Positions 8,679-43,938 of a DNA stretch of 64,000 bases are shown here, one piece after another; positions within the stretch are counted from its first letter, which is position 1; each line of letters begins with the position of its first letter. Both the position numbers and the translations under genes were made by a program. The notes beneath the pieces are model-generated. The model was not told the origin of the DNA, searched no databases, and saw only the letters and a list, made by a program, of their open reading frames with translations. The stretch comes from Holosporales bacterium (GTDB lineage: Bacteria; Pseudomonadota; Alphaproteobacteria; Holosporales; CAZGKG01), in contig JBIKIF010000001.1 in assembly GCA_044361745.1 (NCBI GenBank), positions 90,274-154,273 on the forward strand, written 5' to 3'.

Positions 8679-9583
8679 TTCTGACTGGACGGTGTGTCCT
8701 TAAAATCCGGGGCGGAGACGCCAAGGCTTTTCTCCAAAAGCTCATCACAAGAGATTTAGGAACTTTGTCAGAGACCCAAACATGCTACGGAAGTTTACTC
8801 ACCCCCCAGGGGCGCTACGTCTCAGACTTTTTTGTGAGCCAGACACAGGACGGCCTGTTGCTTGATCTGCCAACCCCCCATGCAGAAACCGTTCTGCGGC
8901 AGTTTTCTCTCTACCGCATGCGCATGGACGTAGAGTGTTCTCTCACAGAAAACGTGGTTTGGGTCCACACAGAGGGGGAGTTTTCAAACGATCTCCCCGA
9001 CACATTAGGGGAAACCCTTGCCTATCGGGGGGGCATTCTTTTCAGAGATCCACGCCTCAAAAGCTTGGGTCTTCGGGCGATCCTGCCTAAAGGACAGCCC
9101 TTATGTAATCTCTCAACCTTGGACAGCGGAGATGATCCCTACAGGCATTTTTCCATGGACCAAGGAATCAGCCAAGCCCCCCAGAGCCTGATTTCTGGGG
9201 CGTCGATTATCCTTGAGCATGGGTTCTTAGAGCTTGGTGCCGTCAGCCTCCAGAAAGGGTGTTACCCAGGGCAAGAGCTCATTGCCCGCACGGTGTATCG
9301 GGGGGAACTCCGTAAGCGTGTATTTCCTGTGAGAATCATCCGCCCAAGGGAACGCAGCGAAACAGAAGCACTCTCAGAAGACATAATCTCTTTGCCCCCG
9401 GTGTGTTTTCAGGAAGAGCCGGTGGGGCGCCTTCTCGACACCCTCCAAGAATCCGGTTTGATTCTTGCATCTGTTTCCAGTGTTCTGGCCAGCCTTGCTT
9501 CCGGCGAGCTTCTGTCCTGGGGAACTTCCAGACTGAGGCCTTCGGTTCCCGACTGGATGACGCTTCCAGAAGCGTCTTTATGA
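8675..9583 (+). CDS. ygfZ: YgfZ-type folate-binding protein (Fe-S cluster repair / tRNA modification family)
   Basis: ATG at 8675 overlaps the upstream stop (ATGA). N-terminal LKIRGGDAKAFLQKLITRDL and the KGCYPGQE motif. Confidence 0.75.
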   Translation: MILTGRCVLKIRGGDAKAFLQKLITRDLGTLSETQTCYGSLLTPQGRYVSDFFVSQTQDGLLLDLPTPHAETVLRQFSLYRMRMDVECSLTENVVWVHTEGEFSNDLPDTLGETLAYRGGILFRDPRLKSLGLRAILPKGQPLCNLSTLDSGDDPYRHFSMDQGISQAPQSLISGASIILEHGFLELGAVSLQKGCYPGQELIARTVYRGELRKRVFPVRIIRPRERSETEALSEDIISLPPVCFQEEPVGRLLDTLQESGLILASVSSVLASLASGELLSWGTSRLRPSVPDWMTLPEASL

Positions 9584-10633
9584 CTTCTGTTTTAAAAATT
9601 GAACAAAAAACGAAAGACCGCTCGGGTCGTCTGCCCATCTGCTGTAAATATCGGGTAGGGACTTGTCTTCCCAGCTTAAAATTTGACGCAGTACGTAGGG
9701 TGTTGGACTGTGGGGATCGTGATTTTGTAAAAAATCTGTAATGTTTCGAAGCAAGCGATACGCATCTTGACGGGTTCTGAGGCTTCCTGTAGGGGCATCG
9801 TCCTTTTCCAGAAAATCAGGATCTTCAAGTGCCGTCGTTTTTGAAGATGGGCTCAGAGGCTTTTGGACCATTTTTTTCCAAACAGCAACCTGACGACTCA
9901 ATTGATTCAATTGACGCGGGAGATCATAGAACACAACACATTCTTTGCCGGCTTTTTCCCGGGTTGTCTCCTCAATCTGCTTAAGCCCATTTTTGACATT
10001 TTGAATTTGAAATTCAAGGGCTTCATAAAAGGAGGCTGGTGTTTGCTGAACGCTTGACATGACCTGTTGAAGAGTCGGTTTCTTCAGAGACTCCAGAAAC
10101 TGTTTCGGATCTTTTTGCTTTTGACTGAGAAGATCAAAATGTTGAGCGTCAATCCAATCCCCAAAAAAGTAAGGTAATCCAAGAGAATTTTTAGGGAAAA
10201 TAACAGGGAGCTTCAAAAGATTTGTGGCCATTTGTTTATCCAGCCATTCATAAGGTGCGAGGCGGAACTCCTCATCTTGAGTGTCCATGGGATAGAGGGT
10301 GGGCCAAAAATTTTTGGATAAGGCATCCACCAAAAACAGACCTTCGCTTAATCCTTCCAGCCCTTTCATCGACATCCACGCTTCTGTCAGCCAGGCAGCG
10401 ATTTGAAGATCCTTGGTTTTTTTTGCGAGAGCGTCCGTGCACAACTGTTCAACCTGGAGCCAATCAGATTTTTTTTCATCCAGTTCCCAAACTCCTTCAG
10501 GGAGATCACTTGGATCACTTGAGGAGCGAGCTTCCTGAATCAGATCGTAAGTTTCTGTATAGCGGAGAAAGCTCCCAGAGGGATTGCTTCCCGGGAAGGG
10601 CGACAGAAGTGTTTTCAACTCATGTTTTGCCAT
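9578..10633 (-). CDS. tssA: type VI secretion system protein TssA (ImpA N-terminal domain family)
   Basis: 351 aa. The N-terminus PFPGSNPSGSFLRYTETYDLIQEARS matches the ImpA_N pattern. Directly downstream of tssM. Confidence 0.75.
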   Translation of the reverse strand: MAKHELKTLLSPFPGSNPSGSFLRYTETYDLIQEARSSSDPSDLPEGVWELDEKKSDWLQVEQLCTDALAKKTKDLQIAAWLTEAWMSMKGLEGLSEGLFLVDALSKNFWPTLYPMDTQDEEFRLAPYEWLDKQMATNLLKLPVIFPKNSLGLPYFFGDWIDAQHFDLLSQKQKDPKQFLESLKKPTLQQVMSSVQQTPASFYEALEFQIQNVKNGLKQIEETTREKAGKECVVFYDLPRQLNQLSRQVAVWKKMVQKPLSPSSKTTALEDPDFLEKDDAPTGSLRTRQDAYRLLRNITDFLQNHDPHSPTPYVLRQILSWEDKSLPDIYSRWADDPSGLSFFVQFLKQKS

Positions 10634-10645
10634 TTGTGCAATCCT

Positions 10646-13600
10646 TTAAGTCTTAGAAGCGGTTTTTGGGGTGGCTTTTGCTTTGGCCGGTTGGGGTTTG
10701 TGATCTTTAGGTGGGCAAGGCCCTCCGCTTCCGCAGGGGTCGGGGACGAGACTTTTGAGAGGTCTTTTGACAACCACAGGCTCTGACGGTTCGAGTGCCT
10801 CTAAATCTGGTGCCTCCGTAGGGAATGGGGAAAGCGCCAGTGGTTCAAAGCTCTCTGCTCCCTCTTTTTGAGTCTTTACACTCATAAAGATAAGAGCACT
10901 GGAAGGGGTTGCAGGGGAGGGATTGTCCGGAAGATCCTCGGGAGGATAGGAAAGATTTTTCAAAACCGTTGGGATTCGGAAGCGCAGGGTTGTTGGATCC
11001 GGATCTTCATTTTTTGTAAAATCAGAACCCTTAGCTTTTTGAAGGTCGAGCATCCGGAGGAGAGACCAGCATCCCTTAAATGTATAGGTTGCGCTTTGTG
11101 CATCCACACTCAAGGCCGACTGGGTTGAATCAATCGTTGGGCGGTAGGAGCTGCCCAAGGCCCAGCGCATCCCAACAGTGATTGGTGCGCCAGAAGCCCA
11201 ACGGGTCAGCGCCTTTTCTTTGGAGAAGTCAAAAGTTTCCTCTCCGATAGTGACAGTCCATGCAATGATCTGGTTCCCATTTTTTTCAGTGTCTTTGTTG
11301 GTACGGAAAATGACCTGAAGTGGCAGAGACGGTTCGACTGTTTTGTCACTGGGGCTTGTGGTCAAAGGCCTAAAGAATTTCCTCAGCTCAGTCATTTGCT
11401 TGATAAACAGCAGGGCTTTTTCAAGATGGGGTTTTGAAGCTTTTTGTTTTTTCAAAAATTCCTGAGCAAACAAAGCATTTTTATCAAATAAACTGTAAAA
11501 GGCGGCCACTTGATCCGGCTGTGCATCTGGATAATTCACAAATCCTTTAGGAACAAAAGGATAGCGGCCAGACAGATTTTTATTAAAGAAGTTTGCAATT
11601 TTGACGTAGCCGTCTTGAGCTGATTTTTGGCTGACATTTTTACACTGGCCCTCAAGGGATGCGCGAATGGTTTGCAAAACGTCCATGAAAAAGTTTTTCC
11701 GAGGACCTTTCACAACGCGCAGCATCAGAGGGCAATTCGCGAGAGTCATGTTCGGCAAATCTTTTAAAATAAATCCTTCGAGGGCATGAATAGAATTCGG
11801 GGATTTTTGGTCTAGCAAAGTCAACTGTCCAAGAATACTTTGCCATTTCCGTGCGACTCCAGGGAGTGAGCCATGCTCGTTGAGAAATCCCAGAAGTTTG
11901 AGAGGTGGATCAATAAATTCTCTCGCGATATAACGAATCCGGTTTCGCGTCATGAGCAAGCGATCTCTCAGCTCATTTTCATTCTGGACGCCAAACACAT
12001 GAAACATAGATCCCTTGCCCCCTTTCCAGCGGCTGAGGGCGGTGAGGTTCAATTGGTAAGGACCCTCTTCTTCTACAATGAAATCAATCCGTTCCAAAAT
12101 AGAAAGGGTTTGCTGGGTAAGAATTTCTTTTAATTGTCCTGCAAGGTGGGTTTCCCCCAACGTTTCAAGGCTTTTGAGGATTTCTATAAACAAAGGCGTT
12201 GTGGCCCGCAAATTTTGAACCATCGGTAGGTAAACGGCCTCAGGCGTTGTTTTTGAAACGAATGGATCGAGCGGCCCCTTTTGTTGGGCGGCGGCAAGCT
12301 TTTTTTGGGCAGCTTGAGCAAGGCTTTTCAAGCAAATCGAACGGAGAGTTATCTGAGTTCTTTTTGGCAGTGCAGACGTTTTTTTTATAAAAAAGTCTTG
12401 GAACTCTTTAATAAGAGTCGTTACGTCTCTCAGAATTGCATAATTCCAGATGATTTCCTCACCCGGATCAATTGTGGTATCAAAATGCGCAGAGCCTTGA
12501 ACAGACATAAAGGATTGAGCCAAAAGCAGGTTCAAAAACCCTTGTAAATTCGAAACAGATGGCGCAATGGAAGAGCCCGCACTTTGTTTGAAATCAAAAA
12601 GGGATCCGGTCAGAGGCGTTTTATAGGCAACTAAGCCTCCTCGGAATCCTTGAAAAGCCGTTTCACATCTTTTGAGGAAATCATCTGTGACTGATGATGA
12701 GAAAAAATTAGAACTGACAATATTCTTCACCAAAAGATCAAAATCAGGGCCTGGGAGAAATGTCTTGCGTGTCATCCATTTGGAGTCTTGATTGGTGAAC
12801 AAGGCAATGGAGTCTGTTAAATTTTCGACTAAATAACGGAGCTGTTCCATTTTGTAGGATGATGTGGCCCGATAAAATTCATCCAGTGCTTTTTTTAAGG
12901 ATTCAATCTGAGGGGTCAGCTTTGAAGGGCTGAGGCTTTCGACCAAGAAATCTTTAATGAGCTTCTCGAGGCGTTCATTCGCTTTGGATGAGTATTCATA
13001 GAACCCGATCGGTTCAATCTGAATATGGCTTAAAGCGCTTCGATACAGTTCCCCATTATTTTGGTAGAACTCTTTAGGCAGGGGAGTTTTAAATAATTGC
13101 TCTACAATGAAGCCAAAATCTTCAAGACTCGCTGTGTCTTTGAGTTCATTAAATTTAAGGATCATTTTCTGGGCATTTGTGAGGGTGTCTACGTACTGTT
13201 TAAGAATCAAAAAGGGAAGCGTACGGATTGGGTTCACCCCTTCTGTCTGTTTTTGAGGTGATTGCAAGGTTGGGAGATGCCCAGAGATCGCTTCATCAAT
13301 CTGATCTCTGATACGAGCAGAAATGGCTTTGAGAATGACCACATTGTAGGCGACTGTGAGAACCTTGCTCAAACGATTTTCGAGAGGGCTGAGCCAAGAG
13401 GCTGGGATAAGAGGGAGAAACAGATGCTCTGTTCGGACGTTTTGCATAGACCGAATGATGAGTTGAGCTTGCTGTTGAAAGAACGCATGGTCAGACGCGA
13501 GATAATTCTTATCTGAGAGAGATCTTTGAATGCCATACCCAATGCGGTTCAGGCTTGGTAGAATCGCCATCCGGGTTTCCACAAGGCGATTGTAAGAGTA

Positions 13601-14935
13601 GATGAGCCCCACAAAGCCCAACAATGAAAAGAATCCAACGCCCATTTGGAAAAATCGCAAGGCCCGGTTGTTGGATAAAATTCTTTGACGCACAAATTGA
13701 ACCAAGCCTTTTTCAGGAAAAATCTTCCCCCGAAACAGGGCCGTTGAAAAATAAATGGATCGTTTTTGGAGTTTGATTTGAGGGCTGGTCTCCCCGTCTT
13801 CCTTCGTGGTCTGCAATGCGTTGCCCAGAGACTCCTCCATCGTTCTTTGAAGTGTGGTGTCGACATTCGTGTCGACAGTTCCATCTCCGGTAAAGTAAAC
13901 ACCTCTAAAAAAGAAATGTTCGCTGAGCTTGCTAATCTGAAAAAGATGATTCAGGCAGAGGCTGAGAGGTTCGTGAAGATTTGCAAATTCTCTGGGAAAC
14001 AGCAGAACCCCATCTCGTTCGGCATAAACTTTCCCCCGGGTAAAAATCTCCTGCTGGAGATAAATGAGTTGCTCAGAGAGGGAGTGGAACAATTCGTCAC
14101 ACCAAATAGGTTGATAGGGCATTTCGAGAGGGTAAGGATTTGACCAGCCGAAGGCATTATCCCGGTTCTCCGGTGGGATTTCGTGACAAAAGCTCGTAAA
14201 GCCTGGAATCAAATCGCAGTGGGTGACAATGATGAATACAGGAATCTTCAGCCCTAAGACTCTTTGAATCTGCCACAATTTTGAATACAGAACCTCGGCG
14301 CGTGCTGCAAGTTCATCACTGGAGCAGTTCTTGAGTTCATGGGCCGAGAGCGTTAGGACAATGCCATCCATCGGGCGGTTTGAACGATGGTTTTGGAGAA
14401 GATCAAGGAGCAACCGCCATTCTTCTTCCCGAGAAAAGAGTCCATCTTTTTGGAGAACCAGCTGACCGCTGACGTCTAAGACCACCGCTTGATCAAAGAA
14501 CCACCAGTTACAAAGAGCGCTTCGATCAACAGTCGCGGGTGCGCCGACAGGAAGGGGGAGTCGTAGGCTTTCAATGAGGGTTGTTTTGCCGGCTCCTTCG
14601 GCGCCAACCATCACAAACCAAGGGAGCCGATACCGATAGCCTCGCCCCCCGACAATTTCCCGCATTAATCGCAACGCATAGGCAAAAGATTGGCTCAGGG
14701 GATCTTTTGGAAAATATCCCAATCTAGCAAAAAAATACCCAATGCTCTTCTTGCGTTTCTGCCAAGGTGTGAGCTCTTGAGGGGACTCCTCAGAGGCACT
14801 GTCTTGTTCTAAAGTTTGAGGGTGTAATAGGCCTCTCAAAAACCAAAACAGCCATCCGCATAAAACAAAACCAATGACTAGGGAGCTAACCCAGACCCAG
14901 AATGTTGTAGAGCTCAAAAACGTCACCAAATTCAT
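10646..14935 (-). CDS. tssM: type VI secretion system membrane subunit TssM (IcmF)
   Basis: 1429 aa. N-terminal TM segments, Walker A GAEGAGKTTLIES, a third TM near residue 430, a large periplasmic region and a Pro/Lys-rich tail. Confidence 0.9.
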   Translation of the reverse strand: MNLVTFLSSTTFWVWVSSLVIGFVLCGWLFWFLRGLLHPQTLEQDSASEESPQELTPWQKRKKSIGYFFARLGYFPKDPLSQSFAYALRLMREIVGGRGYRYRLPWFVMVGAEGAGKTTLIESLRLPLPVGAPATVDRSALCNWWFFDQAVVLDVSGQLVLQKDGLFSREEEWRLLLDLLQNHRSNRPMDGIVLTLSAHELKNCSSDELAARAEVLYSKLWQIQRVLGLKIPVFIIVTHCDLIPGFTSFCHEIPPENRDNAFGWSNPYPLEMPYQPIWCDELFHSLSEQLIYLQQEIFTRGKVYAERDGVLLFPREFANLHEPLSLCLNHLFQISKLSEHFFFRGVYFTGDGTVDTNVDTTLQRTMEESLGNALQTTKEDGETSPQIKLQKRSIYFSTALFRGKIFPEKGLVQFVRQRILSNNRALRFFQMGVGFFSLLGFVGLIYSYNRLVETRMAILPSLNRIGYGIQRSLSDKNYLASDHAFFQQQAQLIIRSMQNVRTEHLFLPLIPASWLSPLENRLSKVLTVAYNVVILKAISARIRDQIDEAISGHLPTLQSPQKQTEGVNPIRTLPFLILKQYVDTLTNAQKMILKFNELKDTASLEDFGFIVEQLFKTPLPKEFYQNNGELYRSALSHIQIEPIGFYEYSSKANERLEKLIKDFLVESLSPSKLTPQIESLKKALDEFYRATSSYKMEQLRYLVENLTDSIALFTNQDSKWMTRKTFLPGPDFDLLVKNIVSSNFFSSSVTDDFLKRCETAFQGFRGGLVAYKTPLTGSLFDFKQSAGSSIAPSVSNLQGFLNLLLAQSFMSVQGSAHFDTTIDPGEEIIWNYAILRDVTTLIKEFQDFFIKKTSALPKRTQITLRSICLKSLAQAAQKKLAAAQQKGPLDPFVSKTTPEAVYLPMVQNLRATTPLFIEILKSLETLGETHLAGQLKEILTQQTLSILERIDFIVEEEGPYQLNLTALSRWKGGKGSMFHVFGVQNENELRDRLLMTRNRIRYIAREFIDPPLKLLGFLNEHGSLPGVARKWQSILGQLTLLDQKSPNSIHALEGFILKDLPNMTLANCPLMLRVVKGPRKNFFMDVLQTIRASLEGQCKNVSQKSAQDGYVKIANFFNKNLSGRYPFVPKGFVNYPDAQPDQVAAFYSLFDKNALFAQEFLKKQKASKPHLEKALLFIKQMTELRKFFRPLTTSPSDKTVEPSLPLQVIFRTNKDTEKNGNQIIAWTVTIGEETFDFSKEKALTRWASGAPITVGMRWALGSSYRPTIDSTQSALSVDAQSATYTFKGCWSLLRMLDLQKAKGSDFTKNEDPDPTTLRFRIPTVLKNLSYPPEDLPDNPSPATPSSALIFMSVKTQKEGAESFEPLALSPFPTEAPDLEALEPSEPVVVKRPLKSLVPDPCGSGGPCPPKDHKPQPAKAKATPKTASKT

Positions 14936-14966
14936 CTAGAACACCTTGTTGAAGTCGATGGATAGA

Positions 14967-15791
14967 TCATGTAAGGGTTGCTGCATCTTCAAGGATCGCG
15001 TCCGTTGTACGAGAGAGGGTGTAGGTTGTCCCATACCAAATCCCGGAAGATAAAATGAGGTACCCCAGAAACGCGCACAAGAAGACAAGTGTCCATTTGC
15101 GTGCATCTTGGTTGTCTTGTTCCACCCCCCCTTCGAGTGTGGATCGCATGGCATTGGGAAAAATAAGCCCGTTGTAATCAAATAAGGCGGGTCGCCTGTG
15201 GTACACGAAAGTAAAAATTTGTTCCCTGTAATGTTTGAGAGTTTCTCCCTCATCAAAACCTCGATACTGGCCTCGAAATCCTAAGCCTAAAGTGGTGAGA
15301 TAAAGGATCCCAACCTCTTGTTTCAGAGGATCTCGCTCTTTGAGGAAGCTCTCAAGATTTTTGAAAAATTGAGAGCCAGCAATGTGTGTCCCAAAGAGCC
15401 GTTGTTCCAGCAAAGACTTTTCCCAATAGCGGCGTCCCTCCCATTTCATGCCGAGAAAAATCTCGTCCGCTAAAGCTGCCATAATGTACTGAGCTTCCCT
15501 GTAGCAAGCGGCCCCAAAGGCACCTCCTTCGGCGTTCGCTTCAAGGGCTTGGGAGGTGAGGAGATTTTGAAGAGAGTTCAGAATCTGATCTGCTTTCTCA
15601 TCCCATGGGGACAGAACATCGGAGCCCTCATTTTTTTCTGCCTCCTGTTCCGTGAGTGTGGGGCGCAAGCTTCCTGAAAGGATCCGTTCTTTGTGGCGCA
15701 GGAGAAGATAATAAAAATCTTGAAAAAATTGGAGCAAGAATCGGGTGTGCTGAGCGTCCGTCTGGGGTATCTCCAAAGATCCGTACAACAT
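14967..15791 (-). CDS. tssL: type VI secretion system protein TssL (DotU family)
   Basis: 274 aa. DotU-like core (YIMAALADEIFL, LTTLGLGFRGQY) and a single C-terminal TM WTLVFLCAFLGYLILSSGIWYG. No peptidoglycan-binding extension. Confidence 0.8.
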   Translation of the reverse strand: MLYGSLEIPQTDAQHTRFLLQFFQDFYYLLLRHKERILSGSLRPTLTEQEAEKNEGSDVLSPWDEKADQILNSLQNLLTSQALEANAEGGAFGAACYREAQYIMAALADEIFLGMKWEGRRYWEKSLLEQRLFGTHIAGSQFFKNLESFLKERDPLKQEVGILYLTTLGLGFRGQYRGFDEGETLKHYREQIFTFVYHRRPALFDYNGLIFPNAMRSTLEGGVEQDNQDARKWTLVFLCAFLGYLILSSGIWYGTTYTLSRTTDAILEDAATLT

Positions 15792-15986
15792 TTTTTACCC
15801 CGGTTGATTCATGTTTAATTTCCAACGAATACACACACATGTACCCCCCAATGGTAAATTTTTATATAAGTTTTTTGCGCACAAATGAGAAAAGTCAGAA
15901 TCCTGAACACATCAGAAATTCATTGAAAATTACTTTTTTGGGCTATGATTGACAGGAGGGCATTAATCTGAAAGAGGGCAAAGTTT

Positions 15987-16346
15987 GTGAAGAAAAATAT
16001 AAAAACCAGATTTTTAAGGGTGGTGATCGGAATAATTTGTCTTTTTTGGGGGCGCGAAGTCTCTTGGGCTGATTCATCTGTGTCCCCAGGGCCAGTTTGT
16101 TGTGGCATCTGTGACACTTTTAACCCTCAAGATGAGACAAGTTTTTTCCAGGCCCATGACTGCCCTGAAGGAGTTTATAGCAATCCTAAGTTGGACAAAA
16201 AAGCCTTAGATATTCGAAAAATGAATCGGCCTGATAGCCGCAATGATGAAGACCACACCCGGAGTCTACTAACCAAATCTATTACAATGCGCAGCCCAAA
16301 TGAGGGTCCAGGTGATTTACCAAAAAATTTATTTGAGTGGGGATAA
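15987..16346 (+). CDS. hypothetical small secreted protein
   Basis: 119 aa. Signal-peptide-like N-terminus and a CCGIC motif. Divergent from tssL. Confidence 0.4.
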   Translation: MKKNIKTRFLRVVIGIICLFWGREVSWADSSVSPGPVCCGICDTFNPQDETSFFQAHDCPEGVYSNPKLDKKALDIRKMNRPDSRNDEDHTRSLLTKSITMRSPNEGPGDLPKNLFEWG

Positions 16347-16349
16347 GCC

Positions 16350-16568
16350 ATGAAAGAAAAAATCACATACTTATGGATTTTAAGTATCTTATGGATCGGT
16401 TTTGATTCAAAGGGATATGCAGCCGATTTTCTTGATCCGCTTCAAAAGGAATTCGTTTCCGGGACTCTGACTGATTTTGCAAAAAAAACAACTGAAAACC
16501 ATAAATTCGCAGAAAAAAAAGTCCCCCCCAAAAAAAAAGAAGCCTTAGAGCAAGAAAGCTCTGACTGA
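16350..16568 (+). CDS. hypothetical small secreted protein
   Basis: 72 aa. Signal-peptide-like LWILSILWIGFDSKGYA and a Lys-rich C-terminus. Starts 4 nt after the previous ORF. Confidence 0.4.
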   Translation: MKEKITYLWILSILWIGFDSKGYAADFLDPLQKEFVSGTLTDFAKKTTENHKFAEKKVPPKKKEALEQESSD

Positions 16569-36376: not shown

Positions 36377-37363
36377 TTATTCTTTTTCAAAAGTAAAAAA
36401 GGATTTTTCTTGCAATAGTACGGTAAAAATTAAATCGAGTTGTTTGTCAGATTTTTTGATTGTTTTGTATTCTGTTGCTATGCGCCGCTTTTCCGTTTTA
36501 ACATATTTGAAGCCGTCAATTGTGAATACATTAGATATGCCTGAAACCTTTTCGTCGCAAGGCGCAAGTATGAGTTTGCCCCCTGGTTTGATGAGCTTAT
36601 TCGCCTCTCGAATGAGCTTCGCCCAATTTGTATCTTGCCCTGCGTTACATGCCTAATTCCCTGGGAGCATCATACACATATTAATCAAATAAACCGAATT
36701 GACTGTTGGCGGGTTCCCAAGTTTGTTTTTGATGAACTCTGTTGTTGTTTCGTCTCCGAACCAAAGTTTGTTTTGAGAACGTTCTCCCTGCAGATCTATA
36801 TACAGAGCTTGGGATGGTGGGAAGAAAAATAAATCTAATGGAGCTTTTGAAAATTCACCTTCTACACGAAACCTGAAGACGCATTCTTCTTGTCCATTTT
36901 TTTGAGCTAGAGAATTTTCTCCAAAAAGCAAATATTCTTTTTCTTGTAATTCTTTAAATGAAAGAGTCTCTTTTCCAGTCCATCCTCGGCGCATCAGCGG
37001 ATTATTGTTGACACCTTCATCGTTAAACGAGGGCGTTTGAAGAATTATTTTCTCTAAAAAGTCTTGAGCGCCTTGAGTTAAGGGGCTAGAGACGCCCACA
37101 ATGATCTCCTTAAATTCAGAAGGTTTGCGTTTTATTTCCTCCTCTATCGCAGTTTTTATGCTATTTTGGATTGCTTTGTCTAAATCTTTGTCGAATTTTG
37201 CTTTATCTCCAGCAAATTGATCGCTTCTCGCTGGGAGCTTTGCTCCTCTTCTGTTGTACTCTTGTGCTCTGCGCGGGTCAGGTCCCTGAGCATGAGCGTT
37301 GGAGAGCAGAGTCAAAAAGATTATTACGCAATTTAAAATATAAAACATTTTCTCTAATACCAA
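36377..37363 (-). pseudogene. secreted methyltransferase-like gene interrupted by an in-frame TAG
   Basis: A 236-codon ORF with signal peptide (FYILNCVIIFLTLLSNAHA) ends at TAG 36653-36655. The same frame stays open for 91 more codons to TAA 36377-36379. That tail contains NWAKLIREANKLIKPGGKLILAPCDE, a SAM-methyltransferase-like segment. Local sequence is AT-rich. Confidence 0.5.
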
Positions 37364-37395
37364 AAATTATAAAAAAATAATAATTCAATAAAACT

Positions 37396-38145
37396 TTAAA
37401 ATGGCATGATTTGATTGATAAATTTTTGTCCATAGGGGGTGTCTTTGAGGTCTGAGAGTTGACCTCGGCCTCCATAAGAGATTCGGGCTTCCGCAATTTT
37501 CTTGAGATCAACCGTGTTTTGAGAGCTAATATCTTCAGGGCGAACGACTCCTGTAATAGCCAAGTCTCGAACTTCGAAATCAACGCGCATTTCTTGGCGT
37601 CCAGAAATCACAAGATTTCCGTTGGGAAGGATCTGGATCACGGTGACAGCGACAGAAAATTTAACCGTCTCCCCACGCTTCATTTCTCCGTTAGACTCTG
37701 TTTTAGGTTGATTGCTAAAGCCTAATACATTGTTTGGGTTCAATGTTTTGGGCAAAATATCTCTGAGTTTGTTTTCGTATCCAAAGAGACCGGTGATGGA
37801 GGCAGCGTTTGTGCTTGTACGATCTGTGCTGACCCCCGTCTTCATTTCGGCGTTGTCTTTAACATCCACCAGGACGGTCAGAATGTCTCCAATGCGATTA
37901 GCCCGTTGATCTTTAAAGAACGTTCGGGAGCCGGCGCGCCAAAGAGCGTTAGGCTTATAGAGTATATTTGAGGGCTCTGGCATGGGCATATGGACAGGTT
38001 GATAGTCTGGGTAAGCGGTTGGGTCTTGCGTCCGTGTCAAGGGAGGGGCATCGCTTCCGTCATAAAGACGCACTCCTTTCTGGGCGCATCCGCAGAGAAA
38101 ACAACAGAGGAGGAGGGAGAAAGAGCGATTCATGACAGAGTCCAT
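37396..38145 (-). CDS. flgH: flagellar L-ring lipoprotein FlgH
   Basis: Lipobox FLCGC. FFKDQRANRIGDILTVLV and ISYGGRGQLSD motifs. Confidence 0.9.
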   Translation of the reverse strand: MDSVMNRSFSLLLCCFLCGCAQKGVRLYDGSDAPPLTRTQDPTAYPDYQPVHMPMPEPSNILYKPNALWRAGSRTFFKDQRANRIGDILTVLVDVKDNAEMKTGVSTDRTSTNAASITGLFGYENKLRDILPKTLNPNNVLGFSNQPKTESNGEMKRGETVKFSVAVTVIQILPNGNLVISGRQEMRVDFEVRDLAITGVVRPEDISSQNTVDLKKIAEARISYGGRGQLSDLKDTPYGQKFINQIMPF

Positions 38146-38153
38146 TCGATCAC

Positions 38154-38924
38154 CTAAGAAGCTTGAATTGAGACGTGACCGCGCGCTTCAACAACACCCC
38201 ACAAAGGGGGAAGTCGATCTTTAGAGCGTGTGGGGTTCGTCACGGGGATCAGGTCTCCCTTTTTGCCGCTGGCAAGGGCTCGGGCCCCTGTGTTTCGAAT
38301 CGAGAGATTCTTGATCTGATAGGTGACTTCCACAGGGTCACCGCGATCAATCCGTGTGGCCGTTTTTAAATAACGGCTTTGGGGCATGTCACCGACATGA
38401 AGAGACCTCTTCAGAATGGCTCCAGTCAGTTCCTGAGGGTCTAAAATCACGTCATTGACACGATAATCATCCTCAAGGACAACCCAATCGAGATGATGGG
38501 GGAGAAGAGTTTCTCCGGCGTTCAAGCTTTGCTTTAAAACAGGGACGCGTTTGAGAAATCGCACGTTCCCCTCCACGGGAATGGTTCTGCCCCCATTTGT
38601 CAGAGTGAGCAAGGAAGAAAACCTCTTTGTTCTGGGGTCAAAATAAACAGAGGAGACCGTAAAAGGGGTCTCTGCTGGAATGGGGCTTCGGGCGACGGAA
38701 AACTGGAGTTGAATGTCTTGAGAAAACTTCTTCTGCAGCTCACCAGAAATTTTTTCTGTGGCTTGAAGCCAGAAATCTTTGGGGGCTTGTGGGGGCTCAT
38801 CTGTCGGAGAGACGGACGCAAGAACCTGATCAATGTCGGAGATTGCCCAAGAGGGAGATGCCTCTAGGAGCAGAAGCCCAAAGAAAGCAACAGTGACTCT
38901 GGACGCGAGAGTGTCTGATTTCAT
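38154..38924 (-). CDS. flgA: flagellar basal-body P-ring formation chaperone FlgA
   Basis: Signal peptide MKSDTLASRVTVAFFGLLLLEASPSWA and C-terminal GKKGDLIPVTNPTRSK...GHVSI. I chose the start at 38924 to avoid overlapping flgG; the track gives 39005. Confidence 0.75.
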   Translation of the reverse strand: MKSDTLASRVTVAFFGLLLLEASPSWAISDIDQVLASVSPTDEPPQAPKDFWLQATEKISGELQKKFSQDIQLQFSVARSPIPAETPFTVSSVYFDPRTKRFSSLLTLTNGGRTIPVEGNVRFLKRVPVLKQSLNAGETLLPHHLDWVVLEDDYRVNDVILDPQELTGAILKRSLHVGDMPQSRYLKTATRIDRGDPVEVTYQIKNLSIRNTGARALASGKKGDLIPVTNPTRSKDRLPPLWGVVEARGHVSIQAS

Positions 38925-38931
38925 GGTGAGA

Positions 38932-39738
38932 TTATGCGCTGATTTGAGAAAGCTGACGAACATCTTCGTTTTCCTTACTTTGGGCAATGCGAAGAGCGGT
39001 GGCATTCGCGTTACTAAATTTTTGGATCATCGCAGCGCGTATGAGCTCTGTTGGGCCATCTACGTTAGAGCGCTCGATGGATCCTTGAATCATGGACCCA
39101 AAGCCAGGGTCTCCAGGCCTCCCTTCAATGGGGTCTCCTGCCTCGGGGCTCCAAGTGAACAGGGTGTCCTCATGGGCGATGAGGCCTGCAGGGTTGATAA
39201 AATTAACGAGACTCAGCTGCCCGAGTTCGTCTTGCGTTCCTTCTGGGGTAAGCCCAAGAATTTTCCCATCTTTTTCGACAAGAAAACTCACGTATTTCCC
39301 TGGGTCAATTTTGATTTCATTCGTGAGGGGATAATCTGTAATCAGCCTGAGAATGCCCTCTGAGTCTGTTTTGAGGTGCAGGGCTCGTGTGTATCCCTTC
39401 ATGTCGTTCCCCATGTCCACCTCTAGAAATCCTGGGCCGTTAATAAAAAGGTCGTATTTATTTTTCGTAGAGTCAGCGACGCCTTGACGAAAATCCCGCA
39501 TCGTGGCGGCGACGTAGACGCCGCTACCTGTTTGCAAAGAAGGGATCCCTTGGTTTTGTCGTTTTCCCGTAGGCCCCTCTGTTTTTCCTAAAACATCTTG
39601 GAAAACGGTGTTGGTGAGAATGGCATCGCTGCGATAAAACCCATCTGTCAGTTGGTTTGAGAGATTCGTTGCGACCGTTTGAAGGGCAAAATCGCTGGCG
39701 GCAATAGCAGAGGCGGAGACAAAGGTGGATGTACTCAT
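38932..39738 (-). CDS. flgG: flagellar basal-body rod protein FlgG (divergent)
   Basis: N-terminal rod motif TVATNLSNQLTDGFYR and C-terminal GSIERSNVDGPTELIRAAMIQKF. Position between flgF and flgA. Confidence 0.8.
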   Translation of the reverse strand: MSTSTFVSASAIAASDFALQTVATNLSNQLTDGFYRSDAILTNTVFQDVLGKTEGPTGKRQNQGIPSLQTGSGVYVAATMRDFRQGVADSTKNKYDLFINGPGFLEVDMGNDMKGYTRALHLKTDSEGILRLITDYPLTNEIKIDPGKYVSFLVEKDGKILGLTPEGTQDELGQLSLVNFINPAGLIAHEDTLFTWSPEAGDPIEGRPGDPGFGSMIQGSIERSNVDGPTELIRAAMIQKFSNANATALRIAQSKENEDVRQLSQISA

Positions 39739-39762
39739 GGATTCGTCCTTTTATCAAGAAAG

Positions 39763-40500
39763 CTAGGCAGTGACATGGAGAAGTTGGTTCACGAGCCGAC
39801 TCGAACGTTCGTAGTATTTGCGCACAAGGTCACCGGTCATTTGGGCATCGGTTTTAATTTGGGTCATTTTTGCCAGTGTTTGGGTGATGGAGACATTGGA
39901 TCCTTCGAGGTGCCCTTGCAGAACTGTTGGATTCTCAGAGGGTGTCAGAGTGTTGGGCTCTTTAGGGGTGTAACGGTTTTTCCCTGTGTCCTCTAATGTA
40001 TTCAGGTCGTTCACAGTCATAATTTTGAATTCTCCGATCAGAGAATTGTTTTGATCAAAAATGCGCCCGTCCCGTTCAATACGAATATTGTGCGTTTCCT
40101 CTGGAAGCTGGATGGGCTCTCCAGAGGTATCAAGAAAGGGGACTTGGTCGAAGGTCCTCAACGTATTGTCGTCTGGGTTTAAAAACAAATGACCATCCCG
40201 TGTTACGGTCCCATCGGCGACACTCAAAAAATCTTTTCCATTGAGAGCAACATGAAATGCATTCCCTGTTTTTTCTAAAGGGCCTTGGCTGGCATCTGTC
40301 CAAGAGGCTCCTAAGGCGGGGTAGGCAAGACCATTCATGGGGCCTGTTGCCGCACCGCCAAAACTCATCTCATGGGTGTTGATGCTTTTGTATCGTCCTT
40401 TGTGGCCTGGAATGACAGCGTTGGCGAGCTCGCTTGCAAGATTTTCGATTTCATGGGAATGGGTAAATTGGCGAGATCCAAGAAGAGGTTGAATAGACAT
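39763..40500 (-). CDS. flgF: flagellar basal-body rod protein FlgF (divergent)
   Basis: C-terminal LQGHLEGSNVSITQTLAKMTQIKTDAQM and a weak N-terminal rod motif. Position upstream of flgG. Confidence 0.75.
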   Translation of the reverse strand: MSIQPLLGSRQFTHSHEIENLASELANAVIPGHKGRYKSINTHEMSFGGAATGPMNGLAYPALGASWTDASQGPLEKTGNAFHVALNGKDFLSVADGTVTRDGHLFLNPDDNTLRTFDQVPFLDTSGEPIQLPEETHNIRIERDGRIFDQNNSLIGEFKIMTVNDLNTLEDTGKNRYTPKEPNTLTPSENPTVLQGHLEGSNVSITQTLAKMTQIKTDAQMTGDLVRKYYERSSRLVNQLLHVTA

Positions 40501-40683
40501 GCAGTTTGTCCCCTAAGGCAAATGACAGACAGACCCTATAAGACAAACAATAAGAAAACCATAATTTAGAAAAAATTTGAAATAGGCATCGTTTTTCAAG
40601 ACACAAGAGCATTTTTTTTGTCAATTTTTTAAGGGTTTGTGGGGTTCTCTGTAGAGCATAATTTATGTTCAAGGAAAACGTCT

Positions 40684-41211
40684 ATGGCTGGTCCTTCTCG
40701 TCCCTCTTCCCAGGATTCCCCGAACAAGGAGCTGGATCCTCAGAAACAGACGTCCTCTCATCGGACTCTCTGGATTTCTTTAGGGGTTATTGCTCTCGCA
40801 GGCGCTGGTGCGTTATTCTTCACGTCCGCAGGGAAAGCGTTGTTAGGGATTGACTCCCTCCCTCAAGAGGCAGGGAAAAAATCCAAAGGATCAGCCCCGA
40901 ATACCCAAAAATTTTATGTGAACGTGCCTGATATTTTGATTAATTTGCGTGCAAGCAAGTCAAAAACACATTTTTTAAAGCTTTGTTTAACGCTTGAGCT
41001 TAAAAGTGAGAAAGATGTCAAATATATCAAAGATATTATGCCAAAAATTGTTGACGGATTTCAGGTCTATCTTCGTGAGCTTCATCCAGACGATTTGAAG
41101 GGTGCGGAAGGTATTTACAGCTTGAAGCAACATCTTCTTGCGCGGGTGAATGCAGAAACAGCGCCTGTCATGGTCGACGAAATTCTCTTCCGAGATATGT
41201 TTGTACAATAA
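40684..41211 (+). CDS. fliL: flagellar basal body-associated protein FliL
   Basis: Single TM, then FYVNVPDILINLRASKSKTHFLKLCLTLELKSEKDV, typical of FliL. ATG at 40684. Confidence 0.8.
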   Translation: MAGPSRPSSQDSPNKELDPQKQTSSHRTLWISLGVIALAGAGALFFTSAGKALLGIDSLPQEAGKKSKGSAPNTQKFYVNVPDILINLRASKSKTHFLKLCLTLELKSEKDVKYIKDIMPKIVDGFQVYLRELHPDDLKGAEGIYSLKQHLLARVNAETAPVMVDEILFRDMFVQ

Positions 41212-41240
41212 TAATTTTTTTGGACAAAAGATGGTCTGCT

Positions 41241-42146
41241 ATGGAAAAACCTAAAAAAAATGCAGAAGGAATTGAAGTACTTCTCAGAAAACCGGTGATG
41301 TATGAGCGATTTCCAGTTCTGGAAGCGATTTTAGGACGGTCTGCGTTGTTGTTTATGGGAAGGCTTTATTCCCTTTTGATGGTCCCTCTGGAGGTGCGTC
41401 TTGAGTCGACGCAGACTATTCGCTACGGGGAATACATAAGCTCTCTGGAAAATGGCGCTTTGATGGGCGTTTTTCATACTGAAGAATGGGACAATGATGG
41501 CTATCTGATGATGATGCCTGAGCTCACCCTGTATCTCATAGAGCTGATGCTTGGGGGGCAGCCAGACGATAAGAGCGCGGGCAAGCAGCCAGACGTCAGT
41601 CGTTTGTCTTATACATCGCTTGAGCAGCATCTGATTAAGCAGTTGGCAGGTTACCTTCTGGGGGCCCTTCAGGAATCTTTTTCTGCTATTACATCGGTGA
41701 GCTTTCAATTGGATCGTCTGGAAAACCATACGCACGCCACTTCTTTTATGAGAGAAGATAGTCCTTGTGTTGTTGCCCATTTTTCTGTGTCTATTGGCCA
41801 GTCAAACAGTGTGTTTCAAGTGGTTCTCCCCCATACTTTGATTCAGCCGATCCGCCATTTACTTTCGGATGGTTTTGTGGGTGAAAAGCTGGGTCGTGAT
41901 TCTCTTTGGCTGGCCCATATGGAGCGAGAGCTTCCCAATGCGCCCGTGACTCTCCATGCAGTCCTCGATGAAATGACTGTCTCTTTGAGAGAGGTGATGG
42001 CTTGGGAGAAAGGAACTTCTTTTTATTTGACGGTGCATCCTGATTCTTCTGTGACCCTTCAATGTGGTGGGAGGTCCGTATTCGCTGTTAAAATGGGACA
42101 AAAGCAAGGGGATCTTGCGTTTGTGATTGAGGACACGCTCCTTTAA
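41241..42146 (+). CDS. fliM: flagellar motor switch protein FliM (divergent, short N-terminus)
   Basis: ERFPVLEAILGRSALLFMGRLYSLL aligns with the E. coli FliM ERLQALEIINERFARHFRMGLFNLL segment. LIELMLGG and the C-terminal SpoA-like LREVMAWEKGTSFYL...FAVKMGQKQGDLAFVI are present. Confidence 0.75.
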   Translation: MEKPKKNAEGIEVLLRKPVMYERFPVLEAILGRSALLFMGRLYSLLMVPLEVRLESTQTIRYGEYISSLENGALMGVFHTEEWDNDGYLMMMPELTLYLIELMLGGQPDDKSAGKQPDVSRLSYTSLEQHLIKQLAGYLLGALQESFSAITSVSFQLDRLENHTHATSFMREDSPCVVAHFSVSIGQSNSVFQVVLPHTLIQPIRHLLSDGFVGEKLGRDSLWLAHMERELPNAPVTLHAVLDEMTVSLREVMAWEKGTSFYLTVHPDSSVTLQCGGRSVFAVKMGQKQGDLAFVIEDTLL

Positions 42147-42167
42147 ACCGAAGACAGGTGAATAATT

Positions 42168-42671
42168 ATGTCTCTAATTTTAATATTAGATATCTTTGCA
42201 GGATTTTTTTTGTTAATGGGTTTTTTTTACATTATCTGGTTCAACAAAAAATTAGTTGCCGTTCAGGGGAGTCATCAAAAATTCCAAAGCTTGTTTGATA
42301 CCATCTCAAAAGCTCTGGATCGAGGGCAATCCAGCCTTAAGCAACTGGAAGATATGAACGCAAACATTTCTGGAGCTCTGGATGAAAAAATGGCCTCTGC
42401 TTCTCGTCTGATCCAAGATCTAAACTTTTTTCTTGGCCGTGCGGAGGGGTTGGTTTCTCAATTAGAAGAAAGCGCCCGAGAGGCAAGATCTCTTCAGAAA
42501 ACTTTTCCGACCATGGGGGATCATACAGGAGCTATGTCTCTCCATTCTTTGAGTGAGATGGAGGAGCAGGACTTCACTATGGTGCCGTTTTGTTATGAAG
42601 AGGCCTCATCCGCTCATAATTTGACCATCGGAAAAGATTACAACTCTGTGAAAAGGAGTGGACGTCTGTGA
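42168..42671 (+). CDS. bitopic membrane coiled-coil protein in the position of Caulobacter PflI (DUF6468-like)
   Basis: 167 aa. N-terminal TM ILDIFAGFFLLMGFFYIIWF followed by a coiled coil. The assignment rests on synteny (after fliM, before motE) as I recall it. Confidence 0.4.
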   Translation: MSLILILDIFAGFFLLMGFFYIIWFNKKLVAVQGSHQKFQSLFDTISKALDRGQSSLKQLEDMNANISGALDEKMASASRLIQDLNFFLGRAEGLVSQLEESAREARSLQKTFPTMGDHTGAMSLHSLSEMEEQDFTMVPFCYEEASSAHNLTIGKDYNSVKRSGRL

Positions 42672-43414: not shown

Positions 43415-43418
43415 AACA

Positions 43419-43934
43419 ATGACGTCTGTGTATTCTATGATCCCCTGGATATCTAAAAAAAATAAAGATTTTCTTGCGTGTGATACAGAAGTTGATTTTC
43501 TGAATTTGAGCCCTGAACATTCTGAGATTGTTCAGTCTTTGGTCTCGGATCGCAATGATCTGCAAGAAAAAGAAGAGAGGTTAACACTTCAGAATGCTCA
43601 ATTACAAGCTTTTGGTAATCTTCTTAAGGGGAAAGTTTCTCAGCTTAAAAAATTACAATTTCACCTGAAATCTCAAATTGTAAGCCTCGAGAATCAGCAT
43701 CACAAAGGTTTAAAAGATCTTGCAAAAATCTTTGAGGGGATGAAGCCTCAAGAAGCGGCTCAGATTTTTTTAACTCTGGATTCGAACAGTGCTATTCATT
43801 TAATTCGTCAGATGAAAAGAGCCAAGGCTTCCGCGATCCTGACCAGTCTGCCACCAAAGCAAGCTGCCCAGTTAACGGTCGCATTCGTGCAAAATGCATC
43901 GATGATTCAACCTATGCGTCAAGCAGAAAGATAA
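43419..43934 (+). CDS. MotE-family paralog lacking the N-terminal membrane anchor
   Basis: ATG at 43419 preceded by GGAAGG. The C-terminal ~150 aa are highly similar to the previous gene (FEGMKPQEAAQIFLTLDSNSAIHLIRQMKRAKASAILTSLPPKQAAQLT). Confidence 0.6.
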   Translation: MTSVYSMIPWISKKNKDFLACDTEVDFLNLSPEHSEIVQSLVSDRNDLQEKEERLTLQNAQLQAFGNLLKGKVSQLKKLQFHLKSQIVSLENQHHKGLKDLAKIFEGMKPQEAAQIFLTLDSNSAIHLIRQMKRAKASAILTSLPPKQAAQLTVAFVQNASMIQPMRQAER

Positions 43935-43938
43935 ACCT

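What the first reader, a model, noticed from the sequence alone, without database searches (positions are those of the whole stretch)
9578..15791. Membrane-complex-only T6SS operon (tssL-tssM-tssA) detached from all sheath, tube and baseplate genes
In 64 kb I recognise TssL, TssM, TssA, VgrG and a PAAR-like protein. I find no TssB/TssC, Hcp, TssE/F/G/K, TssJ or ClpV. Canonical clusters keep tssJ-tssK-tssL-tssM together. Here tssL is preceded by a 195-bp intergenic region and divergent small ORFs. The vgrG module lies 2.5 kb away, separated by HU, a VUT transporter and ygfZ. Either the apparatus is unusually dispersed, or it is a reduced or repurposed system.
Basis: partly seen in the sequence, partly recalled or inferred. 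Interest (0 to 1): 0.6.

Follow-up and report, generated by a model that had tools for sequence, protein, structure and literature searches.

The report
Split-off module of scattered T6SS
These three genes are the membrane anchor and assembly cap of a type VI secretion "nano-syringe" whose genes are scattered around the chromosome; this layout is already described for this group of protist-dwelling bacteria (Holosporales), so the finding is real but largely ordinary.

Summary
Window 15791..9578 (minus strand) is a tight tssL-tssM-tssA operon. A vgrG–ywqK(MORN)–DUF4280(PAAR-like) module lies 2.5 kb downstream. Pfam scans and HMMs built from this same T6SS subtype find no sheath, tube or baseplate gene in the 64 kb.

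It is not a reduced or repurposed system. The closest relatives are Holosporales MAGs. Midha et al. [quoted passage not shown]

Across 140 related loci I see a series. Other phyla have one contiguous cluster, lipoprotein-tssK-L-M-A-B-C-hcp-E-F-G-vgrG. Most Holosporales have lipoprotein-tssK-L-M-A. The window's sub-clade has tssL-M-A only.

A TssK (P0355) matches the window's TssA and TssM in sources, contig count and longest contig (224,868 bp). It therefore lies elsewhere on the same contig. dN/dS is 0.04–0.17, which indicates purifying selection.

TssM is a 1429-aa variant. Its N-terminal and C-terminal domains are homologous to canonical TssM, and its middle helical region is expanded and unmatched.

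I could not retrieve this organism's own sheath or tube genes.

Verdict: a new member of a known kind. The only new detail is the extra tssK/tssL split.

The parts
14967..15791 (-). tssL (DotU family, short form, 274 aa). It has a cytoplasmic domain and one C-terminal transmembrane helix (WTLVFLCAFLGYLILSSGIWYG), and no peptidoglycan-binding extension.
   Evidence: Pfam DotU 1.4e-24. TIGR03349 scores 83 bits, just under the cutoff of 90, and the type IVB IcmH/DotU model scores only 20 bits. The subtype-specific TssL HMM gives E 1.3e-97. dN/dS is 0.04 against strain L003.
10646..14935 (-). tssM, long variant (1429 aa). In order it has N-terminal transmembrane segment(s), a cytoplasmic NTPase domain with Walker A GAEGAGKT (residues 111-118), a transmembrane helix at about 428-448, an all-helical periplasmic region of about 650 aa, a C-terminal beta domain and a disordered Pro/Lys tail.
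   Evidence: PF14331 2.6e-52. TIGR03348 matches only residues 14-450. hhalign against canonical TssM gives residues 79-551 at probability 100% and the C-terminal roughly 215 aa at probability 95%, E 4e-8. The AF2 model of residues 450-1429 has pLDDT 83. The family comprises about 90 proteins of 1310-1505 aa carrying only PF14331. dN/dS is 0.15.
9578..10633 (-). tssA (ImpA_N family cap/assembly protein, 351 aa).
   Evidence: TIGR03363 scores 218 bits, above the cutoff of 161. PF06812 6.8e-32. The subtype HMM gives E 4.7e-116. dN/dS is 0.16.
4862..7024 (-). vgrG (spike). The start is TTG at 7024 (720 aa) or ATG at 7006 (714 aa, the start used in the public gene call).
   Evidence: TIGR03361 scores 468 bits. 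Phage_GPD, Phage_base_V and Gp5_trimer_C domains are present. dN/dS is 0.17.
4152..4784 (-). MORN-repeat (YwqK-family) protein directly downstream of vgrG. It corresponds to the 'ywqK' of the published [ywqK-vgrG] module.
   Evidence: PF07661 MORN_2 5.6e-16. The module is described in PMC8163844 and bioRxiv 10.1101/719211.
3761..4150 (-). DUF4280 (PAAR-like) spike-tip protein, 129 aa. Its start codon is 1 bp after the ywqK stop.
   Evidence: PF14107 2.5e-24, with a weak PAAR_motif hit.
15792..15986 (.). 195-bp intergenic region upstream of tssL, presumed to hold the promoter. No promoter was recognised.
   Evidence: No sigma-70-like site and no sigma-54 consensus falls in it.

Best explanation
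The three genes are the inner-membrane anchor (TssL and TssM) and the assembly cap (TssA) of a functional type VI secretion system. The other parts of that system are encoded at other places on the chromosome of an uncultured Holosporales-like alphaproteobacterium.

Inferred mechanism, taken from what is established for T6SS. TssL and TssM, together with a lipoprotein encoded elsewhere next to tssK, form the envelope-spanning channel. TssA docks on it and primes the recruitment of the baseplate (TssK, E, F, G and VgrG-PAAR) and the polymerisation of the tube and sheath. Contraction then drives out the VgrG/DUF4280 spike encoded 2.5 kb away, with its cargo.

The scattered layout comes from stepwise break-up of an ancestral contiguous cluster during the evolution of this host-associated lineage. 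The window's sub-clade has gone one step further than the published Holosporales pattern by also separating tssK, with its lipoprotein, from tssL.

Shown here: the gene identities, the operon structure, purifying selection, the graded series of arrangements, and a TssK elsewhere on the same contig.

Inferred: the presence of sheath, tube and remaining baseplate genes in this particular genome, co-expression of the modules, and the secretion function itself.
For: Identities.

The long TssM family belongs to a genuine T6SS. In an 8-Mb genome (L004) it sits in tssK-tssL-tssM-tssA-tssB-tssC-hcp-tssE-tssF-tssG-vgrG. The same contiguous order is seen in Acidobacteriota, Nitrospinota, Nitrospirota, Desulfobacterota and other loci.

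Graded arrangements:
- Most Holosporales-like loci have lipoprotein-tssK-L-M-A only. These include Caedimonas and the complete 1.46-Mb chromosome OY969900.
- The window, L001-3, L005/6 and L008-L014 have tssL-M-A only, with up to 10 kb of upstream sequence free of tssK.

TssK elsewhere:
- P0355 shares sources, contig count and the 224,868-bp longest contig with the window's TssA and TssM and is absent from the window.
- Within single MAGs, TssK and TssM accessions fall in the same NCBI blocks: MGL4426855 vs MGL4426928 (contigs of 178 kb vs 43 kb), MGL5720511 vs MGL5720035, MGL4371788 vs MGL4371989, MGL4824867 vs MGL4825841, and MGL6188346 vs MGL6188301.
- A detached SPOR-lipoprotein-tssK module is seen in L150, in the sister TssK clade.

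Selection: dN/dS is 0.04 to 0.17 against a strain 97% identical in TssM. Intact full-length orthologues persist down to 35% identity.

Literature: the four-locus arrangement in Holosporales and its transcription in the Bodo symbiont (PMC8163844); T6SS conserved in almost all Holosporales genomes (PMC11909080); Holosporaceae retain most core components, with YwqK next to VgrG (10.1101/719211).
Against: No TssB, TssC, Hcp, TssE, TssF or TssG of this organism was retrieved. Their presence rests on relatives and the literature.

The same-contig inference for TssK rests on identical contig-length, source and count metadata. I did not read the contig.

TssL falls just under, and TssM well under, the NCBIfam cutoffs.

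Most of the periplasmic region of TssM has no detectable similarity to canonical TssM, and Foldseek did not recover solved TssM structures.

No promoter was recognised upstream of tssL.
Confidence: 0.8

Rival explanations
1. Non-functional remnant. The organism has lost the contractile parts, and tssL-tssM-tssA are leftovers on their way to decay.
For: No sheath, tube or baseplate gene occurs in 64 kb. Holospora species, in the same order, have lost the T6SS altogether (PMC11909080). This organism's sheath genes were not found here.
Against: All three ORFs are intact and tightly spaced. dN/dS is 0.04 to 0.17. The same three-gene module is conserved intact across lineages only 35-49% identical in TssM. 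An intact TssK maps to the same contig. An intact vgrG-ywqK-DUF4280 module lies next door.
Confidence: 0.05
2. Repurposed membrane complex. DotU and IcmF-like proteins would work without a sheath, for example as accessory stabilisers of a type IVB (Dot/Icm) system as in Legionella, or as a stand-alone envelope machine.
For: DotU and IcmF homologues do serve T4BSS in Legionella (established knowledge). The periplasmic part of TssM is atypical.
Against: The type IVB models score far below their cutoffs: IcmF_IVB 27 bits against 1000, and IcmH/DotU_IVB 20 bits against 50. The operon includes TssA, which is specific to T6SS and passes its equivalog cutoff. The same TssM variant sits inside complete T6SS clusters. 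VgrG and a PAAR-like protein lie 2.5 kb away. No Dot/Icm gene is in the window.
Confidence: 0.05
3. Redundant fragment. A complete canonical T6SS cluster with its own tssL and tssM exists elsewhere, and this operon is a duplicated or horizontally acquired extra piece.
For: Not excluded, because the rest of the genome was not available.
Against: The window proteins' nearest relatives are other Holosporales, in an order that mirrors the TssK tree. TssM identities are 45, 38 and 35%, against TssK identities of 51, 39 and 47%, for the same MAG groups. That argues for vertical inheritance with the rest of the system. The single TssK linked to the contig belongs to the same subtype. GC content is unremarkable against the window as a whole. 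Published Holosporales genomes carry one dispersed set.
Confidence: 0.05

Closest known systems
Dispersed T6SS of Holosporales (Bodocaedibacteraceae, Paracaedibacteraceae, Caedimonadaceae; Midha et al. 2021, ISME J, PMC8163844), also the 'modified T6SS' of Holosporaceae diplonemid symbionts (George et al., bioRxiv 10.1101/719211)
   Same: Core genes are split over several loci. The membrane-complex genes are followed by tssA as one unit. A separate vgrG module carries a YwqK/MORN protein. The nearest sequence relatives are Holosporales MAGs. Standard HMMs detect no TssJ.
   Different: The published unit is [tssK-tssL-tssM-tssA]. Here, and in the window's sub-clade (L005-L014), tssK and its upstream lipoprotein are not there. 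In relatives they form their own SPOR-lipoprotein-tssK locus (L150). The vgrG module here also carries a DUF4280 PAAR-like gene and lies only 2.5 kb from tssA.
Contiguous T6SS clusters with the long TssM variant in Acidobacteriota, Nitrospinota, Nitrospirota, Desulfobacterota, Longimicrobiales and Sphaerotilus (for example L004, L046, L052, L054, L055)
   Same: They share the TssM architecture (about 1350-1500 aa, only PF14331 detected) and the same TssL, TssA, TssK and lipoprotein families. The local order tssL-tssM-tssA is identical.
   Different: There all 12 genes are contiguous: lipoprotein-tssK-L-M-A-B-C-hcp-E-F-G-vgrG.
Canonical T6SS-i membrane complex TssJ-TssL-TssM (EAEC Sci-1; PDB 6HS7, 6IXH, 4Y7M)
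   Same: TssL is a DotU-family protein. The TssM N-terminal transmembrane segments, the NTPase domain and the start of the periplasmic domain are homologous (hhalign probability 100%). The C-terminal domain is also homologous (probability 95%, AGRFPF/GRYPF motif). A lipoprotein gene is linked to tssK-tssL-tssM in the ancestral arrangement.
   Different: The periplasmic region is about 250-300 aa longer. Its middle roughly 550 aa has no detectable similarity to PF06761. PF06744 and PF06761 are not detected by Pfam. A PDB profile search and Foldseek do not recover the solved TssM. The lipoprotein does not match PF12790, apart from one weak hit at E 0.02.
IcmF/DotU of the Legionella type IVB (Dot/Icm) secretion system
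   Same: They belong to the same two protein superfamilies.
   Different: The type IVB-specific models score far below their cutoffs. TssA, VgrG and a PAAR-like protein accompany the genes. No dot/icm genes are nearby.

Membership tests
T6SS core component TssL (DotU family) | DotU domain followed by a C-terminal transmembrane anchor | tested here: met
   PF09850 scores 87 bits against a cutoff of 27. The subtype HMM gives E 1e-97. A hydrophobic helix lies at about residues 232-253. TIGR03349 scores 83 bits, slightly under its cutoff of 90.
T6SS core component TssM | N-terminal transmembrane segments plus a cytoplasmic NTPase domain (IcmF-related_N) with Walker A | tested here: met
   PF14331 scores 178 bits. 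GAEGAGKT lies at residues 111-118, with G111 invariant and G116/K117 nearly invariant. hhalign against canonical TssM gives probability 100% over residues 79-551.
T6SS core component TssM | Periplasmic IcmF-related helical domain (PF06761) | tested here: not met
   There is no Pfam or NCBIfam hit beyond residue 450. hhalign on trimmed alignments finds nothing for the middle region. The AF2 model shows a long all-helical region there, so the architecture is comparable but homology is not detectable.
T6SS core component TssM | C-terminal domain (IcmF_C, PF06744), which contacts TssJ in canonical systems | tested here: met
   Pfam does not detect it. hhalign between profiles trimmed to the periplasmic parts gives probability 95%, E 4e-8 over 182 columns, including the GRYPF-type motif. 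Foldseek of a model with pLDDT 89.6 did not list solved TssM in its top 50. The support is therefore remote sequence homology only.
T6SS core component TssM | Equivalog-level score for the whole protein (TIGR03348) | tested here: not met
   234 bits against a cutoff of 388, with only the N-terminal third matching.
T6SS core component TssA | ImpA_N domain plus a TssA C-terminal region, scoring at equivalog level | tested here: met
   TIGR03363 scores 218 bits against a cutoff of 161 over residues 5-337.
Complete T6SS (13 core components in one genome) | TssK present in the same genome | tested here: met
   P0355 (452 aa, PF05936 family) has the same sources, contig count and longest contig (224,868 bp) as the window's TssA and TssM. 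It is not in the window. The link is indirect, because the contig itself was not read.
Complete T6SS (13 core components in one genome) | TssB/TssC sheath, Hcp tube, TssE/F/G baseplate in the same genome | not testable with these tools
These genes are present in relatives according to PMC8163844 and 10.1101/719211.
Complete T6SS (13 core components in one genome) | TssJ outer-membrane lipoprotein | tested here: inconclusive
   None is in the window. Across the subtype, a lipobox lipoprotein is encoded directly upstream of tssK; 81 ORFs were collected. Only one of them gives a weak PF12790 hit, at E 0.02.
Holosporales-type dispersed T6SS (Midha et al. 2021) | Membrane-complex genes plus tssA as a stand-alone locus, away from sheath and baseplate loci | tested here: met
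   for the window. for the definition.
Holosporales-type dispersed T6SS (Midha et al. 2021) | tssK directly upstream of tssL ([tssK-tssL-tssM-tssA]) | tested here: not met
   No tssK is found within the window, or within up to 10 kb upstream of tssL in L005, L008, L009, L011 and L014.
Holosporales-type dispersed T6SS (Midha et al. 2021) | [ywqK-vgrG] module | tested here: met
   VgrG is followed by a MORN_2/YwqK-type protein.
Type IVB secretion IcmF/DotU pair | Match to the IcmF_IVB and IcmH/DotU_IVB equivalog models | tested here: not met
   27 bits against a cutoff of 1000, and 20 bits against a cutoff of 50.

The most novel reading that the evidence does not exclude
The long TssM variant has an expanded, unmatched periplasmic helical region of about 550 aa. 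It is always partnered with a lipoprotein that is not recognisable as TssJ, and in Holosporales with a SPOR-domain protein. Together these could define a structurally distinct, so far uncharacterised T6SS membrane complex. It would be shared by Acidobacteriota, Nitrospinota, Nitrospirota, Desulfobacterota and Holosporales. That would also explain why Holosporales T6SSs are reported as lacking TssJ: the gene is present but unrecognised. The stepwise break-up of this cluster in endosymbionts (12 genes, then 5, then 3) would then be a natural experiment on which subunits must stay co-encoded.
Probability: 0.3. Interest if true: 0.5.

Novelty: new member of a known kind. Interest (0 to 1): 0.25.

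Why it matters
For genome annotation, it shows that an isolated tssL-tssM-tssA operon in a Holosporales-like genome should not be scored as an incomplete or degenerate T6SS. The apparatus is encoded in pieces.

It adds one further step, the tssK/tssL separation, to a published pattern of cluster fragmentation in obligate symbionts. tssL-tssM-tssA is the unit that stays together longest, which fits tight stoichiometric or co-translational coupling of these three proteins.

The side observations may interest T6SS structural biologists, but I did not establish them here. These are the long TssM variant and the conserved lipoprotein upstream of tssK, which may be the 'missing' TssJ of Holosporales.

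Tried and rejected
1. Finding this organism's own TssK, TssB and TssC by context look-ups. Six TssK candidates were checked: P0212, P0237, P0202, P0196, P0197 and P0208. None came from the window's samples. Four were ordinary tssK-tssL-tssM loci. Two (L061, L150) were detached tssK modules from other organisms. The link was finally made only through cluster metadata.

2. A JGI metagenome scan with a TssK alignment. It returned 80 loci but none from the window's metagenome, so the collection appears not to include 3300059473. It was still useful for mapping arrangements.

3. L110 as a possible TssK locus of the window clade, because it has the same GC (0.48) and a detached SPOR-lipoprotein-tssK. 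I rejected it because its TssK groups with non-alphaproteobacterial types.

5. The first hhalign runs on whole-length alignments showed only the N-terminal match. Trimming the alignments was needed to reveal the C-terminal homology.

6. Searches for a sigma-54 or sigma-70 promoter upstream of tssL found nothing above chance.

7. An anti-phage defence reading. The PADLOC library gave no hits.

It was rerun with 11 sequences.
Full report
**What is there.**
The reported interval is exactly three minus-strand ORFs.
- 15791..14967 encodes a 274-aa DotU-family protein, TssL (Pfam 1.4e-24).
- 14935..10646 encodes a 1429-aa protein. Its first 450 residues match the TssM/IcmF N-terminal domain (PF14331 2.6e-52; TIGR03348 residues 14-450). 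Nothing beyond residue 450 is recognised.
- 10633..9578 encodes a 351-aa TssA that passes its NCBIfam equivalog cutoff (218 bits against 161).

The gaps between the genes are 31 and 12 bp, so this is one operon. The 195-bp upstream gap and the divergent small ORFs are as described.

Three genes lie downstream, between the operon and the spike module: a YgfZ-like protein, a Vut_1 transporter and HU. After them comes a spike module on the same strand:
- VgrG at 7024/7006..4862,
- a MORN/YwqK protein at 4784..4152,
- a DUF4280 PAAR-like protein at 4150..3761.

**Is anything else from a T6SS in the window?**
No. The rest of the 64 kb encodes housekeeping and flagellar functions. These include ThyX, DnaX, an RND pump, pyruvate dehydrogenase, PriA, FliM/FliL/FlgH/FlhB/FliR/FliQ, LptFGD, MraW and PBP.

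tblastn with a complete cluster of the same subtype found only TssL, TssM, TssA and VgrG.

I then built HMMs from 15-125 homologues per component, taken from related loci. They recover TssA, TssL and VgrG at E 1e-97 to 1e-258. They give nothing better than E 0.17 for TssB, TssC, Hcp, TssE, TssF, TssG, TssK or the TssJ-like lipoprotein.

**Whose genome is it?**
The window is part of a metagenomic contig of about 221-225 kb (IMG 3300059473, also in Logan and ENA assemblies).

The nearest TssM relatives, at 35-49% identity, come from MAGs labelled Holosporales, Holosporaceae, 'uncultured Rickettsiales' or Alphaproteobacteria. More distant ones include Caedimonas.

**The TssM variant belongs to a real T6SS.**
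About 90 proteins of roughly 1310-1505 aa share the window protein's full-length architecture and carry only PF14331.

In an 8-Mb genome the orthologue lies in tssK-tssL-tssM-tssA-tssB-tssC-hcp-tssE-tssF-tssG-vgrG, preceded by a lipoprotein gene. The same contiguous order recurs in Acidobacteriota, Nitrospinota, Nitrospirota, Desulfobacterota, Longimicrobiales and others.

Profile-profile comparison with canonical TssM gave three results:
- Residues 79-551 align at probability 100%.
- After trimming both alignments to the periplasmic part, the C-terminal roughly 215 residues align at probability 95%, E 4e-8. This stretch includes the AGRFPF/GRYPF motif.
- The roughly 550 residues between them have no detectable counterpart.

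I therefore treat it as a genuine but divergent TssM with an expanded periplasmic helical region.

**A graded series of arrangements.**
- Outside the Alphaproteobacteria, all twelve genes are contiguous.
- In most Holosporales-like genomes only lipoprotein-tssK-tssL-tssM-tssA remain together. This group includes Caedimonas and a complete 1.46-Mb chromosome.
- In the window's sub-clade only tssL-tssM-tssA remain. This sub-clade comprises the window, three strain-level contigs, L005/6 and L008-L014. Up to 10 kb of upstream sequence contains housekeeping genes and no tssK.

**This is already in the literature.**
Midha et al. [quoted passage not shown] They also report that these genes are transcribed in the Bodo symbiont.

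The 2025 Holosporales review calls the T6SS conserved in almost all genomes of the group and "probably a non-standard one" (PMC11909080).

George et al. report that Holosporaceae symbionts retain most core components, with YwqK next to VgrG. They did not detect Hcp or TssJ (10.1101/719211).

The window shows two of the published modules. The one difference is that tssK is not upstream of tssL.

**Is the rest of the machine present in this organism?**
I could not read the rest of the genome, and most attempts to find its other genes failed (see 'tried and rejected').

One test succeeded. I searched with a profile of TssK proteins that form the sister group of the main Holosporales TssK clade. 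I then listed the cluster members.

That gave a 452-aa TssK, P0355. It has the same sources (NCBI, JGI, Logan, ENA), the same number of contigs (2) and the same longest contig (224,868 bp) as the window's own TssA and TssM. It has no match in the window. So tssK lies elsewhere on the same contig.

In related MAGs with the three-gene layout, TssK and TssM carry accessions from the same NCBI block. In one case the contigs are known to differ, 178 kb against 43 kb.

A related organism shows the detached module directly: a SPOR protein, a lipobox lipoprotein and TssK, followed by an unrelated convergent gene (L150).

TssK identities between these groups (51, 47 and 39%) run parallel to the TssM identities (45, 35 and 38%). 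This is consistent with vertical co-inheritance of the separated modules.

**Functional state.**
Against a strain 97% identical in TssM, dN/dS is 0.04 for tssL, 0.15 for tssM, 0.16 for tssA and 0.17 for vgrG. Intact orthologues of all three genes persist across the whole sub-clade. This does not fit a decaying remnant.

The type IVB-specific IcmF and DotU models score far below their cutoffs. TssA, VgrG and a PAAR-like protein accompany the genes. A Dot/Icm-type repurposing is therefore unlikely.

**Verdict.**
The operon is the membrane-anchor-plus-cap module of a dispersed, probably functional Holosporales T6SS.
- The 'dispersed' reading is supported.
- The 'reduced or repurposed' reading is not supported.
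- The phenomenon is published for this order.

The new details are minor. This sub-clade has an extra split between tssK and tssL, and the vgrG module carries a DUF4280 gene.

It is the long TssM variant with its conserved lipoprotein partner, which may be the unrecognised TssJ of these systems.

Still missing is direct demonstration of sheath, tube and TssE/F/G genes in this genome. That needs the full contig and genome bin.

Noticed in passing
window 3665-4285 (+) versus 3761-4150 (-): The public gene call for this stretch is a 192-aa ORF on the plus strand with no family hit. The opposite strand carries a clear DUF4280 PAAR-like ORF (2.5e-24) that starts 1 bp after the ywqK stop. The public call is probably on the wrong strand.
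   Followed up: partly
window 15987-16346 (+) and 16350-16568 (+): Two small ORFs of 119 and 72 aa run divergently from tssL. Both have signal-peptide-like N-termini and neither hits Pfam or NCBIfam. The pair is called in all strain-level contigs. The 119-aa ORF differs by a single non-synonymous change from strain L003. Their function is unknown, as is any link to the T6SS.
   Followed up: partly
L004 7305-7814; L029 6909-7772; L032 6889-7434; L044 7255-7734; L150 2461-3264 and about 75 other loci: A lipoprotein with a lipobox cysteine and a conserved core (D..V(V/I)Y......L.......YF......WxWE(L/W)(V/T)PGQ) is encoded directly upstream of tssK throughout this T6SS subtype. Pfam does not recognise it as TssJ; there is one weak PF12790 hit at E 0.02. 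It may be the TssJ that the literature reports as missing in Holosporales.
   Followed up: partly
L061 1897-2784; L065 8763-9416; L066 4626-5642; L110 4454-5041; L150 1594-2457: A SPOR-domain (peptidoglycan-binding) protein is encoded just upstream of the lipoprotein-tssK pair in several loci, most of them Holosporales-like. It could substitute for the peptidoglycan-anchoring extension that the short TssL lacks.
   Followed up: no
window 10646-14935 (-), residues about 550-1100 of TssM: This roughly 550-aa all-helical periplasmic segment has no detectable sequence or fold match to canonical TssM or to anything in the PDB. The C-terminal beta domain gives only weak C2-domain-like Foldseek matches at E 0.01. 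The last roughly 45 residues form a disordered Pro/Lys-rich tail with a CGSGGPC motif.
   Followed up: partly
L110 (Ga0075156_10002317) 4454-6965: A detached SPOR-lipoprotein-tssK module is followed by a STAS-domain gene and no tssL. Its TssK groups with non-alphaproteobacterial types (53% identity to L091). This suggests that cluster fragmentation happened independently outside Holosporales.
   Followed up: partly
L065 (GCA_004196315.1, SDBT01007811.1) 2640-16127: An intermediate arrangement. tssF-tssG lies 5 kb upstream of SPOR-lipoprotein-tssK-tssL-tssM, separated from it by three unrelated genes. The TssM here is called at only 1214 aa.
   Followed up: no
window about 36650-47430: A substantial set of flagellar genes (FlgH, FlgA, a rod protein, FliL, FliM, MgtE_N/FliG-like, FlhB, FliR, FliQ) lies in this Holosporales-like genome, along with an ABC ATPase and LPS-transport genes. 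The genome is therefore not extremely reduced.
   Followed up: no
window 9578-9583: The YgfZ-like ORF on the plus strand (8543..9583) and tssA on the minus strand (10633..9578) converge, and their ends overlap by 6 bp. There is no room for a terminator between them.
   Followed up: no
L004 1-24218: No ClpV or AAA+ gene lies within or next to the contiguous 12-gene cluster of this subtype (Pfam listing). ClpV may therefore not belong to the subtype's cluster, which makes its absence from the window uninformative.
   Followed up: no
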